From Octopus vulgaris (lineage: Eukaryota): DNA of 64,000 nt. The notes under the pieces were generated by a model. It ran no database searches. It worked only from the letters and a program-made list of their open reading frames with translations, and had not been told where the DNA came from. This document shows positions 16,445 to 37,429 of this stretch, piece by piece. Each line of letters opens with the position of its first letter. Within the stretch, counting starts at the first letter, position 1. Location of the stretch: assembly GCA_951406725.2 (NCBI GenBank), contig OX597825.1, forward strand, positions 32,178,001 to 32,242,000, in the 5' to 3' direction. The position numbers and the translations under genes were made by a program.

Positions 16445-16506
16445 TTAAGCTGGTGCAGTTATTGAATGTAGAGCTCCACATTGAGTGTTTCGTTGCACTC
16501 AATGTA

Positions 16507-16543
<37 letters not shown>

Positions 16544-17120
16544 TATTGCCTTTGCACAGCTTCTAATGCCCGAGATGTACTACAGTGTCAGCTGTTCATT
16601 ACCAGTGAACCAAGGTAACACCTCTTATTTTTCGAGCACCTTCCGGAGTATTCGATCGGTTCCAAGCAATGCTGTTTTCTGCAAGTGCTCCACCCTTACT
16701 GCTGCTCCTATTTGTTCCATGTACTTCTCGAGATTTTTGCTTACTATTCCCAGAGCTCCAACAATTATTGGTACTACTGCTACCGTTTTCATCAACCACA
16801 ACTGCTTAACTCCCCAAGCTAACCTGTCATATCTCTCGACTTTTCTTTCTTCCTTATCGCATACCTTGTTGTCAGCTGGGCATACTATATCTGTGATCCA
16901 GCATAGTTTGTTTTCCTTTTCAATTAAGATTATGTCCAGCTTCCTATTCTCAATCTCATGGTCACATTGAATCATAAAATCCCATAGGATCTTTGCATTT
17001 CTATTTTTGACAATGCCTTCAGGTTTGTGGTCATACCAATTTTTGGCTCTTTCAAGTCCATACTTGTTGCAAAGTGTCCAATGGACAACCCTAGCTCTAT
17101 TGTCATGGCGTCTCTTACTT
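16507..17120 (-). mobile_element. 5'-truncated R4/Dong-like non-LTR retrotransposon (restriction-like endonuclease domain) with (TAA)n tail
   Basis: Open frame 16625-17128 reads RRHDN..ILWDFMIQCDHEIENRKLDIILIEK..IIVGALG..LQKTALLGT..ILRKVL; both ends lie in TAA repeats. Confidence 0.85.
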
Positions 17121-17138
17121 ATTATCATTATGGGGAAT

Positions 17139-17357
17139 AAGATGGTGAGCTAGCAGAATTGTTAGCATGCTGGACAAAATGGTTAGTGGTATTCTGCCCC
17201 GTCATTACATTCTGAGTTCAAATTCTGCTGAGGTTGACTTTACCTCTTGTCCTTTTGGGGTCGATAAATTAAGTACAAATGAAACACTGGGGTTGATGTA
17301 ATCGACTATCACCCTCCCAACTAAATTTCAGGCCTTGTGTCTAGAATAGAAAGGATA
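17139..17357 (+). mobile_element. SINE family A variant
   Basis: Homology. Confidence 0.8.
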
Positions 17358-28914: not shown

Positions 28915-30500
28915 GCAACTACTACTGCTGCTGCTGCTGTTGCTGTTGCTGCTGCTGTTTCTAATTTCCACTGTCACTGCTGCAGTTGCTACTGCTGCTG
29001 CTGCTGCTGCCACGACCACCACTACTTTTGCTGTTTCAATCACCACTGCTGTTTACCATGGCTATCACTGCCGCTGCCACCACCACCACCACCACCGCCA
29101 CCACCACCACTGCCGCCGCCACCACCACCATCACCACCACCACTCCCCCATCTCATTCTTTCAACACCACCACTGTACCACCTCTGTCATCACCATCACC
29201 ACCACTGTACCACTTCTGTCATCACCACCACCACTGTACCACCTCTGTCATCACCACCACCACCCTGTGGCACCACGACCACCGGCACCACAACCACCCT
29301 GTGGCACCACAACCACCCTGTGGCACCACGACCACCCTGTGGCACCATGATCACCGGCACCACAACCACCCTGTGGCACCACAACCACCCTGTGGCACCA
29401 CGACCACCCTGTGGCACCACGACCACCCTGTGGCACCACGACCACCCTGTGGCACCACCACCACCCTGTGGCACCACCACCACCACTTTTACAGTTTCAG
29501 CCATCACCACCACCATCACCATCACATCCACCACCTTCACCATCCTCATTACCCCTTATACCTGCAACTTTCAGACTATCACCACCAGAGATCACTCTCT
29601 CCATCCATGCCTATCAACTGGAACCTCTAAATAGCTCCCCACCCAACCTTATCAACATTGTATACTATTTCTACTACTACTGCCAAAACGCCAGTACCAG
29701 GCTTTCTACCACCAAGTAGCCTAACCATGCCATCTATACCACTCTACAACAACCAACGCTAAGATAATGAGGTAGCCTCTACATGGTCTGTCGGTCTGTT
29801 AGAATTAGCAACCAAATCTCCCTCCAATCACACCTTCAAGTCTTAATAGAGGACTCATTGGATAATGTTGTCCTACACTTAGGAGGAACAGATGGGAAGG
29901 TCATGGCTGGGATATCTTTGTTCATTGGTGTGTTTGATCAGGATTGACTGCAGTGGGGGTGGGGTGGTAAACGATACCAACAACAACTTCAACAAGCACT
30001 TTCACCCATTGACCTCTTTCACCGCCATCACCATCTCTGCCGTTGCCACCTCCACCACCACCATCCTCATCGCTACCAAACCATTACTGCTACCACCACT
30101 GTCTCACCCCCCCCCAGACACCACCAACACCACCACCGCCATCATGGAATATTACAACTGATAAATACTACTATATCACCACTGCCACCACCACCACCAC
30201 CACACCACCACCACCACCACCAACAACTTTTACCCCTACCTGAAACCACCAGCTCTACATTTACTATCCCACCACCATCAACATCATCATCTCCAGCAAC
30301 AACAACAGCAGTAGCAGCAGCACCACCACCACCATCACCTCCACCTCCACCATTGCTTTAACACACAGCTCCACTATCTCCACCACCACCATCACTGTCA
30401 CTAACACTGCTATCACCATTTTCACTATCCCAGTAGCAGCAACACTACCTCCACCACCACAGCCTCCACCTCCACCATTACCACCACCACCACCGCCATG
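28915..30500. repeat. CTG/CAC trinucleotide-rich region containing a 19-bp minisatellite (29262-29485)
   Basis: Unit ACCCTGTGGCACCACGACC. Confidence 0.9.
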
Positions 30501-31177
30501 GTTGTGCTTTGTTTTTACTGAGATTCTTAAATCTGGATTAAATCTTCATCTTCTATCACATGTCAAATCTTCTCAACATTTCTGCACAGAAACTTCTCTT
30601 TTCCAATTATCTTTAAATATTGCAAAGCTGTTATTCTTGTTCTTGTTGTTGTTATTTTAGTTGTTATTACTTGGTGGTGGAGGTGGTGGTGGCACTGTTG
30701 CTGTTGTTGATTAGACTTAGCATGACCCTGATCGAGTAAAACTATGACCAAAACCGATCCAACCTCCATTATTTTTGGATGTACGGAACACATTATCTAA
30801 TGTGTTCTTAGCTGTTATTTCTAAAACCTTTATTGACCACATACTGGCTTTCTCATCGGTTCATTGTTGACGTTCATTATTCTTGTTGTTATTGTTTTAA
30901 CCCTAGGTCATCCTTGATAAATCTGGCCTATTATTAAAAACTTTCCAGCTATGACCACCCATCCTGTCTTTTCATATGATCAAGACTGCATTGGCCAATG
31001 AATTTCTCCATTTTTGTTTTGCAACTTTGGAATATGATTTGAGGGAGGCTTGGCTTCTGTTTCTTGTAGATCAAGTAGCTACATAGCTACGCTGGTTGGC
31101 ATTTGTATTGCACTCTTGTTGATGGTATTTTTTAGAAGTTGATTTTAATATTATTTTCTTTATTTTCTTGTATTGCG

Positions 31178-31650
31178 TAGTGTAGGAGTGGCTGTGTGGT
31201 AAGTAACTTGCTTACCAACCACATGGTTCTGGGTTCAGTCCCACTGTGTGGCACCTTGGGCAAGTGGCACCTTGGGAAAGTGGCACCTTGGGCAAGTGGC
31301 ACCTTGGGCAAGTGTCTTCTACTATAGCCTCGGGCTGACCAAAGCCTCGCGAGTGGATTTGGTAGATGGAAACTGAAAGAAGCCCGTTGTATATATGTGT
31401 GTGTGTGTGTATATATATATATATGTATATGTGTCTGTGTGTGTATGTTTGTGCCCCCCAACATCGCTTGACAACCAATGCTGGTGTGTTTACATCCCCA
31501 TAACTTAGCGGTTTGGCAAAAAGAGACCAATAGAATAAGTACTAGGCTTACAAAGAATAAGTCCTGGGGTCGATTTGCTCAACTAAAAGGCGGTGTTCCA
31601 GCATGGCCTCAGTCAAATGACTAAAGCAAGTAAAAGAGTAAAAGAGTAGA
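31178..31650 (+). mobile_element. SINE family B with an internal 4x16-bp duplication
   Basis: GTGGCACCTTGGGCAA x4 at 31248-31311. Confidence 0.9.
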
Positions 31651-32170
31651 TTGCTGCTGCTGCTTTTTCTGTTCTTGTTGTTGTTGTAATTGTTGCCGTT
31701 GTTTTAGCAGTTGCTGCTGCACCTGTCATTATTTATTTTTTTTGCCACTTAAACTGTTGTTGTTGTTGTTGTTGATGTTGATGTGCATTTTTCTGTTGCT
31801 GTTTATTGATTGTTGTTGATTTTGCTGCTGTAGAAAACAACAACAACAACAACAACAGCAGCAGGAACAACAACAACAACAACAGCAGCAGCAGCTGCAA
31901 TACCATGTGCAGCTGTTCAAATGTGAATCAGTGAAATTCTTGATGGTTCATGTTTGAAAGGTGCTGGCAGTGAGCTAAATCTCTGCTAGAGAGTAGGTTA
32001 CTGTTTCAGCTTGTAATCCTGTTTTGAAGGAAAAGATTACGTTGTTTTTATTGTGATTTTTCCATTTATATTGACAGATAAGACAGATTCATTACATTTT
32101 TCCCTCACCTCTCACCACCGACCACATCACAACCACCTTACACACATGCATACACTTCCTCACGTCTTCC

Positions 32171-32202
<32 letters not shown>

Positions 32203-33096
32203 TTTATGTATGCATATTGGATTTAGTGCCCTTGTTAAATATTGAACTCTATTTTTCTGTTGTTAAATTTAGGTTAAGTAAAAGCATTAACTTCAGATTT
32301 GTGTTTCGTAGTTATTGCTCTGTGTTATTGCTGTGTGTTATTGCTCTGTGTTATTGCTGTGTGTTATTGCTGGTCGAGTCAAAGAAATGGCACTTCATTA
32401 GTCACCACTGGCACCATGTCTTGCCTGTTTTCCAAGACAATAAACTGCTACTGGCTTTGGCCTTAGTCTACCCAACCATGAATAGTAGGAACTACAGTGA
32501 ATTGTGAAGTGCAAGCAAGCACAAGATACTGTACAAATGACAAAGCATTGAATCCAATTCTGCCTATAGACCTAAAGATGGCATTTAGGTAAACCGTTCC
32601 AGCACTTACCAAAATGTCTGAAGATGCTCAATCATTCCTACCTGCTCTTACACTGGCAATGAGACCAGGTTCTAATTTAGACCCATGGTTGCAGAGCTGG
32701 TCTAGATTTTCAAGGCGTTTTTGGCAACTGAGGGTATAAGACTCATTCCTGAACAGGATGCCAGTGAACTGGCATCCTGGCTTAACCGCCCCCTCCCCCC
32801 ACCTGTTGCTTCTACTCGTTTTTTCCAGCTGAGTGAACTGAAGCAACGTGGAATGAAGTATCATGCCAAAGGACACAGTATGCTGCCTGGTCAAGACTCA
32901 AACCCATGACCTAGTGTTCTTCAGCCTACACCTTGACCAGTTGGCCACTTGCCATCCCGATTTGGACTAGAGGTAGCTGATGCAATATTTTGTCTGGTAA
33001 TCATTGTGTAGAGTGATGCAACAGAATAATGTGTTTGATGCACATATTGATGGCTGTTGATGTAAGGTTTTGGCTAGTAATCAACATGTAGAATGA

Positions 33097-33398
33097 GTTC
33101 TCATTCTTAAGGTATTTTTCGATATCATTATTATTAATATTATTACTATTCAGGTCACTGCCTGGAATTGAACTCAGAATTTTGGTGTTAGTAGCCCACG
33201 CTCTTAACCACTATGCCATATGCACATGGGCAACAAACAAGATGAGGACATATATCTGTCAAATGTAAATAATGTAAATAATGTACATAATTCCTCATCT
33301 CTTAAATATAGAACTGGAGGTTTCTTTTAGTTTCTGTCTACCAGATCCACTCACAAGCCATTGATCAGCCCGGGGTTACAATATAAGACGCTCATACA
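33097..33398 (-). repeat. Inverted local duplicate of 34109-34411
   Basis: Reverse complement that includes the host-SINE/insert junction. Confidence 0.9.
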
Positions 33399-34189
33399 GG
33401 GGCATTCATAACTACAGGCACAGCTGTTGATGTAAGGTTTCTGCTTTGTGATCAGTGTGTAGAATGATATGACAGAATATGTTTGGCGCAATGATGCACC
33501 ACAACTGCCTGTAGATACAGGCTGTTGTTACAAAGTTTCACTTTATAATCTGCATGTTAATCGTAGCGTTGTTTTGGATAAAATATTTATGGGAAGACGA
33601 TATAAGAAATTTAATGGTGTGTGGAAGTGAAATATGGTCAGAGAAAATTAAGTATCTTAATGTGCAATATTACTTACCATATTACAAGAAAAGTTGTATG
33701 TCAGTGAACTTGAGAGCATAATTAAGCAATAGAGATATTGAAATCAACAAAATTAATGAATCATTAATTTTTTTAAAAAGTATATATATATTGTTTTATT
33801 GTTGTTTTTTTTCCACAATTTATTAAGTAATTGTTTTTTTTCTTTTTTGGTAATTAATTTTTCTGTTACCCCCTTGTCACCCTTCCACCATCATCTTTCC
33901 TTTTGATTAACTTTGAGGAAAGAGGGGTGGAGAGAGGAGAGAAACTTTATAGTTTATTGTAAGGAAATGATTTAACCAAACTATTTTCTTGTACAAGTAT
34001 TGTCTGGATGGCATGGCTCTTGGCACAGAGAAGCAGACATGGCTGCGTGGTTAAGAAGTTTTGTTCCCAGCCCTGTGCTTTTAGGTTCAGTCTTACTCAG
34101 TAGCACCTTGTATGAGTGTCTTATATTGTAACCCCGGGCTGATCAATGGCTTGTGAGTGGATCTTGTAGACAGAAACTAAAAGAAACCT

Positions 34190-34524
34190 ACAGTTCTATA
34201 TTTAAGAGATGAGGAATTATGTACATTATTTACATTATTTACATTTGATGGCTATTTGTCCTCATCTTGTTTGTTGCCCATGTGCATATGGCATAGTGGT
34301 TAAGAGCGTGGGCTAACAAACCCCAAGATTCCGAGTTCGATTCCAGGCAGTGACCTGAATAATAATAATATTAATAATAATAACATCGAAAAATACCTTA
34401 AGAATGAGAACCCAGGTTCGAGATTTCCCCAAGACACCTGATGAAGGCTGGAGGGTATATCAGCCGAAGCATTGTGTTAGCAACAAACAAGATGAGGACA
34501 AATATCCGCCAAATGTAAATAATG
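34190..34524 (+). mobile_element. tRNA-headed, hammerhead-bearing retroelement with an inverted terminal segment (Penelope-like, non-autonomous)
   Basis: A box 34289-34299, B box 34333-34344, CTGATGA-A-GGCTG..CAGCC-GAAG at 34438-34469, inverted repeat 34231-34277/34480-34526, 12-bp TSD TAAAAGAAACCT; sits inside a SINE B. Confidence 0.75.
34434..34478 (+). ncRNA. Minimal type I hammerhead ribozyme motif (degenerate copy)
   Basis: Stem I ACAC/GTGT, core CTGATGA, stem II GGCTG/CAGCC; GAAG in place of GAAA. Confidence 0.55.
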
Positions 34525-34546
34525 TAAAAGAAACCTGTCATGTATA

Positions 34547-34617
<71 letters not shown>

Positions 34618-35929
34618 TGTGTTTGTGTGTATGAGGAGATGCTGTAAAGCTGTTGGGAGTTAGGCACTCCTTAGCTTTTCTTAAAACAAGTTTCTTGAAG
34701 AGGGTACTGTTGCACCCACAGCTACCTGTACATTTTGTCCTGTATACCCCATAAAAGATGGTTTGGGCACAGTTGCAATTCTTTTAATTATAAATCTGAT
34801 TAGTCAAGATTGCTTTGGGAGTGAAACAACAACAACAACAAAAACAACTACTATAATCAATATGAGGCAATGAGGGAACCCCTTTGTGATTACTTAAACT
34901 ATTAGAAATAGCAACCAAATCTCCAATTTACAAGTGGCTAACTGGTCAAAGTGTAGGCTGAAGATCCCTAGGTGATGGGTTTGATTCTTGAACCAGGCAG
35001 CATGATGCATCCTTCAGCAAGGTTCTTAATTCCACATTGCTCTTGTTCACTCAGCTGAAAAAGAATGAGTAGAAGCAACAGGTGGAAGTTGGGGTGGGGT
35101 AAATTACACACTTCCTATCATAAAAATGCTTAAGAAAAAGATAGGATGGTCACAGCTGGAATGCCTTTGATCATTGGTCTGCTCAGTCAGAGTTGACCTG
35201 GTGCTAAATAATAACTACAACAACAACTATAACAATAATGTAAACAACAAGGGAGCCTGTATGTGGTCGCTCGATTTACTAGAAATAGCTGCAAAATCTC
35301 TCTCCAGTCACATCTTTAAAGGCAAAGAGATAGTTTGAATGAAATAGTGTGAAGCACAAAATACCTGGTGAAAAAGGACAGAACAGTCATGGGTAGAGTG
35401 CCTTTGATCATAACTTTATCTTTTCAATCAGGGCCAACCTGGGGTTATACAGCCAGAACAATAACCTCACTGCCAGCACTGGGCAAGCCTGGTACAGCTG
35501 CACCAAACTCACCATCAAATTATACATTTCCTCTCGACGACTCAATCAGTAATTACAGGAGATAACTGAGATTAGCGTCCTTGTTAATTAATTCCTGCTT
35601 TTGCTTAGTGGAGCTGTCAACAGGAGAAGGCGAGCATGGAAAGGCAGCAGCTTATAATACGATAGACATTTCGTTAACTTTTTAATTGGGTGTCTCTTTC
35701 TTGAATCATTTCAACTGTACCTTCCTGGCATATCATGTATGTGCATCTCTCTCTCTCTCTCTCTTTGTCTCCACTTACACATGTATACATTTGGTTGTGT
35801 GTGTGTGTTGTGTGTGTGTGTGTGTGTGTGTGCACATGCATGTGTGTGTATGCATATATATATTATATATATGTATATACTTGTATACATATCCATGTTT
35901 GTACATATAAACTTCAGTTTACCCATGCA

Positions 35930-35938
35930 TATATATAC

Positions 35939-35976
<38 letters not shown>

Positions 35977-35997
35977 GTATATATATAAACACACACA

Positions 35998-36060
<63 letters not shown>

Positions 36061-36065
36061 GTATA

Positions 36066-36108
<43 letters not shown>

Positions 36109-36302
36109 GTATATATATATATAACACATATATATATATATATGTATATATACGTATGTATATATATATATATATGTATGTGTATATATATATATATGTA
36201 TATATGTGTATATACATGTATATATATATATCATCATCATCATCATCGTTTAATGTCCGTTTTCCGCGTATATATATGTATATATATATATGTATATATA
36301 TG

Positions 36303-36347
<45 letters not shown>

Positions 36348-36380
36348 ATGTATGTATGTATATATCTATATGTATGTATA
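35930..36380. repeat. (TA)n expansion
   Basis: Dinucleotide repeats. Confidence 0.95.
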
Positions 36381-37033
36381 TTTGCCAACAAAAACAAATA
36401 CACACAGATATATAAATGTATACACAAAGAAATAAAAATAAAACAAAAAACCCACAAAACATTTTAAATAATGGCTGAAAGATAAAAAGAAAAACATGAA
36501 ACCAAACAAATTGTTTGTTGTAAGAATGTAGTAATTAGCAGTAGTTTTAAACATTCATTTATTTATTCTTAAATATATCTGCACGGTTTGACTTCTTCTT
36601 TGATTGTGTCAAAGTTTAGTTATTTGGAAACAGCTGTCCCTCCAAGAGTTGTTAGAAACCAGGTTTTATATATTTTGATTTTGCATGGAACATTCTTCCT
36701 TCTTCAAGTGCTCCCCATTGTAAATTTTTCTTATTTCTGGAATCTCTAAAAACTTTGGAAGGTACCTGGAGTTAGTTAATCATATTATTAAGGGTGAGTA
36801 AATTTTTAATATTTATTGAGCTCACTGGAGCGAGGATTTAAAGACCACCCTGAACAAAAAAAAAAAAAAAAAAACATCTGAGAAACCAAATTCATGTTTA
36901 TTAAACTAAATGTGAATCAGGTGTTGCTGGACTTGGTTACCTGTAGCAGATTACACACCTTTTTAGGACTGCAATCTACTATTTTCTTGATCTGTGTTAC
37001 TTGCTTGCTTTAAAGTTTGAAGCTTCAGCCCTG

Positions 37034-37261
37034 CCCTTTATTATTCAAACTGGTCATATCAGGCCCAAATATTCTGCCTGTTTTATATTCCAACCGACCA
37101 GGTCAGGCCTCTTGCACCTACATTCTAAAATGACATTCTAAAACTAAAACAATCACATCATTAAAATCTTGAAGCTATGAGATAAGACATGATTAATTCA
37201 AAAACAATGTGAATAAATAAGCATTACATTTGACAGAGTAATCTGAATGCTGCAGGGTTAA
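37034..37261 (+). mobile_element. TTAA/CCC-ended MITE family 1
   Basis: Ends CCCTTTA...AGGGTTAA. Confidence 0.7.
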
Positions 37262-37429
37262 AAGTACCAGGGATTCCTGCATACAAATTGACATAGGATA
37301 TTATGTAAACATGTTGAGTTAAACATCATCATTATTTTACCATTTGATTTGGAATTTTTGTTCCTCTAAAGTCATTTTGGTGTATAAGTCATCATCATCA
37401 TAATCACCACCACCACCACCATCACCAAA

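What the first reader, a model, noticed from the sequence alone, without database searches (positions are those of the whole stretch)
34190..34524. tRNA promoter, hammerhead and inverted tail in one 335-bp element (possible Penelope-mobilised SINE or retrozyme)
Seen: Pol III A and B boxes (34289-34344), an (AAT)n spacer, a hammerhead motif (34434-34478) and a 3' segment that also occurs inverted at the 5' end. The inverted copy (34191-34277) extends ~40 bp beyond the right end. A 12-bp duplication TAAAAGAAACCT flanks the element inside a SINE B. Known: inverted partial terminal repeats and hammerheads typify Penelope-like elements, whereas classical SINEs use LINE 3' tails. Inference: a Pol III-driven element borrowing Penelope machinery. 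This copy has GAAG and is probably catalytically dead.
Basis: partly seen in the sequence, partly recalled or inferred. Interest (0 to 1): 0.75.

Follow-up and report, generated by a model that had tools for sequence, protein, structure and literature searches.

The report
Penelope-tailed tRNA SINE with hammerhead
This 335-base insert is one copy of an abundant family of short non-coding elements that join tRNA-like promoter boxes to a minimal hammerhead-ribozyme motif, and its insertion pattern suggests it is likely copied by Penelope-like retrotransposons rather than by the LINEs that normally move SINEs.

Summary
In detail: Pol III boxes, (AAT)n spacer, minimal hammerhead, inverted 3' arm and an exact 12-bp target duplication inside an older SINE. 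Public assemblies show a large family: 30,419-37,380 contigs laid in each of three DNA runs. The majority letters restore the core that this copy has lost (GAAA 97-98%, palindromic stem III 70-83%), matching the published Penelope-type minimal hammerhead. Head and hammerhead are bridged in other, divergent copies, and inverted tails of different lengths join the same head start (6 of 15 joints shown), so the head travelled with the tail. The inverted arm runs 32-34 nt past the direct arm, the 'tail' signature that two reverse-transcription starts leave in Penelope-like elements (PMC11167929). Best reading: a tRNA-headed SINE mobilised in trans by a Penelope-like element (about 0.68). Not shown: the autonomous partner, Pol III transcription, cleavage. 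tRNA-SINEs with hammerheads are known (schistosome Sm-alpha); a dispersed one with Penelope insertion geometry was not found in ten literature searches, but it may be an already named family that I could not read. New variant of a known kind.

The parts
34040..34189 (+). Host SINE of an older, abundant family; the insert sits near its 3' end, and its tail resumes at 34537
   Evidence: many 68-82% matches across the window; empty-site comparison
34178..34189 (+). Left target-site duplication, 12 bp
   Evidence: D17
34190..34277 (-). Inverted arm: the family's last 88 nt, from the outer 3' end to just downstream of the hammerhead
   Evidence: I1; family terminus at 34189-34192 from loose ends
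34190..34223 (-). 32-34-nt 'tail' extension present only on the inverted arm in this copy
   Evidence: loose ends behind 34526 begin with the tail letters in all three DNA runs
34207..34215 (-). 3' strand of a predicted 9-bp stem that closes an A/C-rich loop holding the inner 3' end
   Evidence: z -1.56, 14 of 200 shuffles as good
34278..34357 (+). tRNA-like head; position +1 of a tRNA would be 34282
   Evidence: box spacing; other copies start at 34280-34284 (table 5)
34289..34299 (+). Pol III A box
   Evidence: sequence
34335..34344 (+). Pol III B box
   Evidence: sequence
34358..34383 (+). Interrupted (AAT)n spacer, length varies between copies
   Evidence: X1 record 2 bridges it with 12 gaps
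34433..34478 (+). Minimal type I hammerhead motif: stem I 34433-37/34474-78, CUGAUGA 34438-44, extra A 34445, stem II 34446-51/34460-65, GAAA position 34466-69 (GAAG here), predicted cut after 34473
   Evidence: majority letters; published consensus
34479..34524 (+). 3' segment of the direct arm, ending at the inner 3' end (2-4 nt shared with the right duplication)
34490..34498 (+). 5' strand of the predicted 9-bp stem
34525..34536 (+). Right target-site duplication, 12 bp
   Evidence: D17
33094..33401 (-). Local inverted duplicate of 34106-34414 (host flank, left duplication, inverted arm, head, spacer; stops before the hammerhead); not an independent insertion
   Evidence: 94% over 309 bp; alignment

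Best explanation
The insert is one copy of a high-copy non-coding family with tRNA-like promoter boxes, a minimal hammerhead motif and a Penelope-style 3' end, and it is likely transcribed by RNA polymerase III and likely copied in trans by the reverse transcriptase-endonuclease of a Penelope-like element. Steps: (1) Pol III would start near 34278-34282 and read through spacer, hammerhead and tail, which hold no T4 stop (inferred). (2) A PLE protein would bind the 3' part, inherited from a PLE pseudo-LTR, nick both strands of an A-rich target 12 bp apart, and prime twice on the RNA: at the inner site (about 34524, in the A/C-rich loop of a 9-bp stem), giving the long direct arm that here reached the 5' end, and at the outer site 32-34 nt further 3', giving the short inverted arm (geometry shown; mechanism inferred from PMC11167929). 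(3) Repair joins the two cDNAs back to back and leaves the 12-bp duplication (shown). The hammerhead would be silent as a monomer; a cut after 34473 would part the promoter from the priming sites, so uncut RNA is the likely template, and the motif is likely kept as part of the protein-binding end or for cleavage only in dimers (inferred). This copy's motif has since decayed at 34469 and 34471 (shown).
For: Family: 37,380, 35,811 and 30,419 contigs laid in DNA runs X1, X3, X6 (three organisms by the run table) and 4,126 in the RNA-guessed run X15. Core: A at 34469 in 97-98% and G at 34471 in 70-83% of summed depth in 4 of 4 runs; the result fits the published consensus CUGANGAH G..C GAAAN-palindrome-NUH, and the same C-G-U-U end occurs in published rows, one of them PLE-associated. 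Of the variants at 8% or more inside the motif, the two outside CpG sites and outside this copy's own lesions fall on N7 (34442) and loop II (34454), the free positions (weak, two sites). Head travels with tail: 6 of the 15 joints shown link an inverted tail ending at 34221, 34231, 34236, 34245 or 34248 to the head start 34280/34284; X1 record 2 (34294-34434, 9 other letters, 12 gaps) and X15 record 9 (34330-34486, 14 other letters) bridge head and hammerhead in other copies; the masked spacer has cover in 4 of 4 runs. Two 3' ends: fixed outer terminus with unrelated flanks at 34189/34191/34192 (502, 172, 123 contigs in X1), and long contigs that leave the match at 34520-34528 (tables 7, 8). 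Published PLE insertions have an inverted 5'-truncated copy at the 5' end and a 30-40-bp tail on one end (PMC8557442), explained by two RT starts in an AC-rich stem-loop, with both strands cut in AT-rich DNA (PMC11167929). No poly(A) or simple-repeat tail at either 3' end.
Against: No autonomous PLE sharing the 3' end was found; no genome is held and no tool gave upstream sequence of headless copies. The head carries only about a fifth of the summed depth of the hammerhead part (0.16-0.21), so most copies may lack it; this fits 5' truncation and double counting of arms but also a headless source. Only 15 of 299 joints, a few of over 1,100 loose ends and 32 of about 109,000 pieces were shown, and the spacer was masked, so head-to-hammerhead linkage rests on a handful of contigs. 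The head is not recognised as tRNA by ARAGORN or Rfam. Lack of T4 is weak (565 of 2,550 background windows also lack it). The 3' stem has no covariation support. X15 is only guessed to be RNA and contigs show neither strand nor ends. The A-rich cut site also resembles LINE endonuclease sites (recalled).
Confidence: 0.68

Rival explanations
1. The family is mainly headless 3' ends of an autonomous or non-autonomous PLE; the tRNA head belongs to a minority of chimeric copies made when a SINE lying upstream of a pseudo-LTR was co-transcribed, not to a self-propagating SINE lineage.
For: Head depth is about a fifth of body depth; 3 of 15 joints shown link the inverted tail to headless bodies; an earlier scan report in another genome found such a chimera to be a one-off (e1-7811937, unchecked).
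Against: Head-bearing joints share one 5' start with five different inverted-arm breakpoints in several runs; the head has its own subfamily variants (34281, 34293, 34309) and a summed depth of 0.5-1.5 million against about 30-100 for single contigs; long body contigs run up to the masked spacer edge at 34392.
Confidence: 0.13
2. An ordinary LINE-mobilised SINE; the inverted arm came from twin priming or fold-back repair, and the hammerhead is cargo.
For: Pol III boxes, 12-bp duplication and an A-rich target are ordinary SINE traits; SINE tails normally derive from LINEs (PMC5786205).
Against: Twin priming inverts an upstream, non-overlapping part of the RNA (recalled); here the inverted arm is the 3'-most part, overlaps the direct arm by 49 nt and passes it by 32-34 nt, and the arrangement recurs. 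No A-rich or simple-repeat tail. The motif is of the PLE minimal type.
Confidence: 0.08
3. A retrozyme like Sm-alpha: tandem master arrays are transcribed, cut by dimeric hammerheads, circularised and reinserted.
For: tRNA plus hammerhead in about 300 bp is the Sm-alpha layout; back-joints 34506 to 34433 and 34506 to 34405 (depth about 1,500) and 34528 to 34191 show partial or whole tandems in DNA.
Against: This copy is a linear monomer starting at the head, not at the cut site; the motif is minimal, not the canonical type of retrozymes; no unit-length head-to-tail joint (tail end to head start in the same sense) among the 15 shown.
Confidence: 0.08
4. A one-off local chimera of a SINE head and a PLE fragment.
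For: The only other copy in the window is a local duplicate.
Against: Bridging contigs and joints from divergent copies in 4 of 4 runs.
Confidence: 0.03

Closest known systems
Schistosome Sm-alpha / Sj-alpha SINE-like elements
   Same: tRNA-derived Pol III element of SINE size carrying a hammerhead, at high copy number (PMC2770079, PMC6765202, PMC4918200; passages)
   Different: Sm-alpha has a canonical, active hammerhead and often lies in tandem arrays; here a minimal PLE-type motif in a monomer with an inverted 3' arm, a 32-34-nt tail offset and a target duplication
Endonuclease-bearing Penelope-like elements (Penelope/Poseidon, Neptune, Nematis) and their pseudo-LTR ends
   Same: Minimal type I hammerhead with extra base before stem II, G-C first pair, palindromic stem III (PMC4209133); inverted truncated copy at the 5' end and 30-40-bp tail (PMC8557442); two RT starts (PMC11167929)
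   Different: No ORF; 5' end is a tRNA-like Pol III head rather than an RT-GIY-YIG body with a promoter in the pseudo-LTR
Non-autonomous PLEs (e.g. MRC1 of Chlamydomonas)
   Same: Non-coding, share a 3' end with an autonomous PLE, PLE-type insertions (PMC8557442)
   Different: No tRNA head or hammerhead mentioned for them in the passages read
Animal non-LTR retrozymes
   Same: Short, non-coding, type I hammerhead, PLE mobilisation proposed (PMC7229834, PMC7761336)
   Different: Tandem repeats with canonical hammerheads expressed as circles; no tRNA part except in schistosomes
Octopus tRNA-derived SINE families of Ohshima and Okada 1994
   Same: If the host is an octopus (my impression from repeat style, recalled, not established by any search), this may be one of those three families or a Repbase entry
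   Different: Could not compare: paper not held; OR1 is listed as a CORE-SINE (PMC4824008)

Membership tests
tRNA-derived SINE (SINE2) | A and B boxes near the 5' end at tRNA spacing | tested here: met
   34289-34299 and 34335-34344; 0.1 chance pairs per 64 kb
tRNA-derived SINE (SINE2) | Short, non-coding, dispersed, many copies, target duplications | tested here: met
   duplication seen at this locus only
tRNA-derived SINE (SINE2) | Recognisable tRNA structure in the head | tested here: inconclusive
   no ARAGORN or Rfam hit, no cloverleaf; decay is usual in SINE heads (recalled)
tRNA-derived SINE (SINE2) | Transcribed by Pol III | not testable with these tools
   only contigs of an RNA-guessed run
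tRNA-derived SINE (SINE2) | 3' tail derived from a LINE and mobilisation by a LINE | tested here: inconclusive
   no A or simple-repeat tail and PLE-like geometry argue against it; no LINE library to compare
Penelope-like element (non-autonomous) | Minimal type I hammerhead near the 3' end | tested here: met
   against the consensus
Penelope-like element (non-autonomous) | Inverted 5'-truncated copy adjacent to the 5' end | tested here: met
   this locus and 9 of 15 joints shown
Penelope-like element (non-autonomous) | 30-40-bp tail on one end only | tested here: met
   32-34 nt; outer terminus fixed across copies
Penelope-like element (non-autonomous) | Partial tandems (pseudo-LTRs) | tested here: inconclusive
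   absent at this locus; back-joints 34506-34433 and 34506-34405 in one DNA run each
Penelope-like element (non-autonomous) | 3' end shared with an autonomous RT-GIY-YIG element | not testable with these tools
   no genome held; collection scans gave only chance hits or none
Non-LTR retrozyme | Unit-length tandem repeats bounded by hammerheads | tested here: not met
   monomer at this locus; no same-sense tail-to-head joint among 15 of 299 shown
Non-LTR retrozyme | Canonical type I hammerhead with loop-loop contacts | tested here: not met
   5-bp stem I, 6-bp stem II with extra A, minimal stem III
Non-LTR retrozyme | Abundant circular RNA | not testable with these tools
   contigs only

The most novel reading that the evidence does not exclude
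A self-propagating Pol III SINE lineage, thousands of copies strong, that parasitises a Penelope-like element instead of a LINE: a class of PLE-dependent SINEs. Its roughly 140-nt 3' end would define the minimal cis signal for PLE trans-mobilisation, with the hammerhead kept under selection as a protein-binding fold or dimer-gated switch, and its 3' cleavage product possibly seeding the very short arms that start just after the cut site.
Probability: 0.45. Interest if true: 0.76.

Novelty: new variant of a known kind. Interest (0 to 1): 0.58.

Why it matters
SINEs are defined as parasites of LINEs. PLE mobilisation of short hammerhead-bearing elements has been proposed for retrozymes (PMC7229834, PMC7761336) but in the passages I read rests on co-occurrence and shared motifs. 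Here the insertion geometry itself (two 3' ends 32-34 nt apart, inverted arm, target duplication) is tied to a tRNA head across many copies. A 290-nt natural template with thousands of genomic outcomes makes two open questions directly testable: what RNA signal a PLE protein needs in trans, and what the PLE hammerhead is for when cleavage is dispensable for insertion in vitro (PMC11167929).

Tried and rejected
Whole genome: none held. Rfam at gathering over the window: 0 hits; by E-value over 34150-34545: one chance lncRNA hit at E 1.3. ARAGORN: 0. Motif scans for real loci: metagenome contigs 6 hits and viral contigs 1 hit, 7 of 7 unrelated beyond the motif; genome contigs 0 and 0, viral 0. 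The duplicate at 33094-33401 was rejected as a second insertion because it includes host flank and the left duplication. Rival 'PLE fragment inserted into the (AAT)n tail of a SINE' rejected: the inverted arm and the duplication lie outside the head, and other copies join the inverted arm to the head start. The 3 'opposite strands' joints among the 15 shown were set aside as likely effects of the reference's own inverted repeat. No place where many molecules begin or end was reported (table 6), but contigs cannot show this. RNA-to-DNA depth ratios fall from about 0.04-0.05 over the body to 0.014-0.022 over the tail; the tool warns that these depths do not measure expression, so I draw nothing from it. 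Sequence motifs of the element were found in no paper and in none of the supplements searched. Pfam found nothing in the ORF at 16625-17149.

Full report
Observation. The described parts are in the sequence. An exact 12-bp direct repeat (34178-34189, 34525-34536) encloses 335 bp. The left side is the 3' part of an abundant older SINE; 17 of 37 motif rows are host copies of the same subtype, each with the 12-mer homologue once and mostly followed by a tail like the sequence right of the insert, so the repeat is a true target duplication. Inside lie, in order: an inverted arm (34190-34277), a head with A and B boxes (34289-34299, 34335-34344; 0.1 chance pairs per simulated 64 kb), an interrupted (AAT)n spacer, a hammerhead motif (34433-34478; the only hit of a relaxed descriptor in the window, none in 60 simulations) and a 3' segment ending at about 34524. 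The inverted arm overlaps the direct arm by 49 nt at 94% and passes it by 32-34 nt, or 39-43 nt if an extra 9-bp unit is counted. ARAGORN and Rfam recognise neither head nor hammerhead, and neither folds better than shuffles. The only other copy in the window is a local inverted duplicate at 33094-33401 that includes host flank.

Is it a family? No genome is held, so I used public runs. Of 24 runs listed, 14 hold half or more of the sampled words, in four coded organisms. I laid 4 of them at 80% likeness: 37,380, 35,811 and 30,419 contigs in DNA runs X1, X3, X6 and 4,126 in X15, which is only guessed to be RNA. Summed depth peaks at 6-8 million over the hammerhead part and 1.4-1.5 million over the head, against 27-102 for the single DNA contigs listed. 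The tool warns that this is no copy number; a crude bracket gives 5,000-154,000 for the body and 900-29,000 for the head.

The hammerhead. The majority letter is A at 34469 (97-98%) and G at 34471 (70-83%) in 4 of 4 runs. This restores GAAA and a palindromic minimal stem III. The family motif then has a 5-bp stem I, CUGAUGA, one extra A, a 6-bp stem II opening with G-C, and a C-G-U-U end, as in the published consensus for PLE minimal hammerheads; 3 of the 12 alignment rows visible have the same end, one of them marked as PLE-associated (PMC4209133). Other variants at 8% or more within the motif are three CpG-type changes (34465, 34466, 34470), N7 (34442) and one loop II site (34454), a weak hint of constraint.

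Does the head belong to the mobile unit? Of 15 joints shown (284 not shown), 6 link an inverted tail, broken at five different places, to the head start at 34280 or 34284; 3 link it to headless bodies (34423, 34481, 34482); 1 joins head to hammerhead across a deletion; 1 is a deletion in the body; 1 goes back from 34528 to 34191; 3 strand switches are set aside as effects of the reference's own inverted repeat. Two listed contigs from divergent copies bridge the spacer (X1 record 2, X15 record 9), and the masked spacer has some cover in all four runs. The outer 3' end is fixed at 34189-34192 with unrelated flanks; loose ends behind 34526 begin with the tail letters, so the extension is family sequence. 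Against a simple picture, the head carries about a fifth of the body's depth, and most of the tool's rows were not shown.

Mechanism. PLE insertions are described as 5'-truncated, often with an inverted 5'-truncated copy at the 5' end and a 30-40-bp tail at one end (PMC8557442). A purified Poseidon protein cuts both strands of AT-rich DNA and starts reverse transcription at two sites in an AC-rich stem-loop, the tail being the sequence between them; hammerhead cleavage is not needed for insertion and needs the protein (PMC11167929). This locus fits: the long arm ends at an inner site inside the A/C-rich loop of a predicted 9-bp stem (z -1.56), the short inverted arm begins at an outer site 32-34 nt further on. 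I infer Pol III transcription from the head, binding of a PLE protein to the inherited 3' end, double priming on a staggered nick, and repair. A cut after 34473 would separate promoter from priming sites, so uncut RNA is the likely template and the motif likely works only in dimers or as a binding fold. Geometry, family, core and linkage are shown; transcription, cleavage and the partner are inferred.

Rivals. Mainly headless PLE ends with a chimeric minority (0.13); ordinary LINE-driven SINE with twin priming (0.08; geometry does not fit, by recall of that mechanism); Sm-alpha-like retrozyme (0.08; monomer, minimal motif, only partial tandems seen); one-off chimera (0.03).

Known relatives. 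tRNA-derived SINE-like elements with hammerheads are known in schistosomes (PMC2770079, PMC6765202, PMC4918200). PLEs are proposed mobilisers of animal retrozymes (PMC7229834, PMC7761336, PMC8969392). Non-autonomous PLEs exist (PMC8557442; bioRxiv 10.1101/596502). Ten searches returned no paper that, by listing or by the passages I read, describes a dispersed tRNA-headed SINE with PLE insertion geometry; the library lacks most subscription journals and the repeat databases. The window's repeat style looks cephalopod-like to me (recalled; no call names the host). Three tRNA-derived octopus SINE families were named in 1994 (title seen in reference lists; text not held), so the family itself may already have a name. 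Earlier reports of this scan describe tRNA-bearing Penelope-type elements without hammerheads in other genomes (unchecked), which suggests a recurring class rather than a singular case.

What I saw of each paper: PMC4209133 parts 1-2 of 4 of the text, part 1 of 3 and one passage of supplement 2 (file 1 not searchable); PMC11167929 abstract and parts 1-2 of 4, three supplements searched without hits; PMC8557442 12 of 19 passages and two supplement rows; PMC5786205 one passage and one supplement without hits; passages only of PMC4918200, PMC7761336, PMC7229834 (supplement unreadable), PMC6765202, PMC2770079, PMC8969392, PMC10886601, PMC3531059 (no supplement), PMC6962438, PMC4824008 and 10.1101/596502; nothing of the 1994 octopus paper, PMC5785218 or PMC4795812. 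Unseen supplements of PMC7229834 and PMC3531059 may bear on prior description.

Verdict. Real, high-copy, most likely a PLE-mobilised tRNA SINE: new variant of a known kind, interest 0.58.

Noticed in passing
window 33094-33401 (-): 309-bp inverted duplicate of 34106-34414, 94% identical, set between two near-identical 18-bp repeats (about 33427-33444 and 33054-33071) with short filler; looks like a templated insertion from local DNA repair.
   Followed up: partly
window 16625-17149 (-): 174-aa open frame that looks like the C-terminal restriction-like endonuclease region of a non-LTR retrotransposon (recalled; Pfam gave no hit), followed by an (AAT)n run near 16506-16540.
   Followed up: partly
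window 27028 (+), 37469 (+), 44212 (-): Three copies of other SINE-like elements with clear Pol III boxes and bodies unlike the studied one.
   Followed up: no
window 34753-35189 and about 32780-32960: Further decayed SINE-like repeats beside the locus; 34930-35090 resembles 32790-32950 on the opposite strand by eye.
   Followed up: no
joints 34506-34433 (X1) and 34506-34405 (X3), depth about 1,500: Partial tandem duplications that would place two hammerheads 74-102 nt apart, a layout that could allow dimeric cleavage.
   Followed up: no
place 34442: A T-to-C variant at the free N7 position is at 12% in run X6 and 0.5% or less in the other three runs: a lineage-specific subfamily.
   Followed up: no
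joint 34236-34284: One inverted-arm-to-head junction has depth 1,429 in X1 and 612 in X3, so a whole insertion unit, or that junction, was itself multiplied.
   Followed up: no
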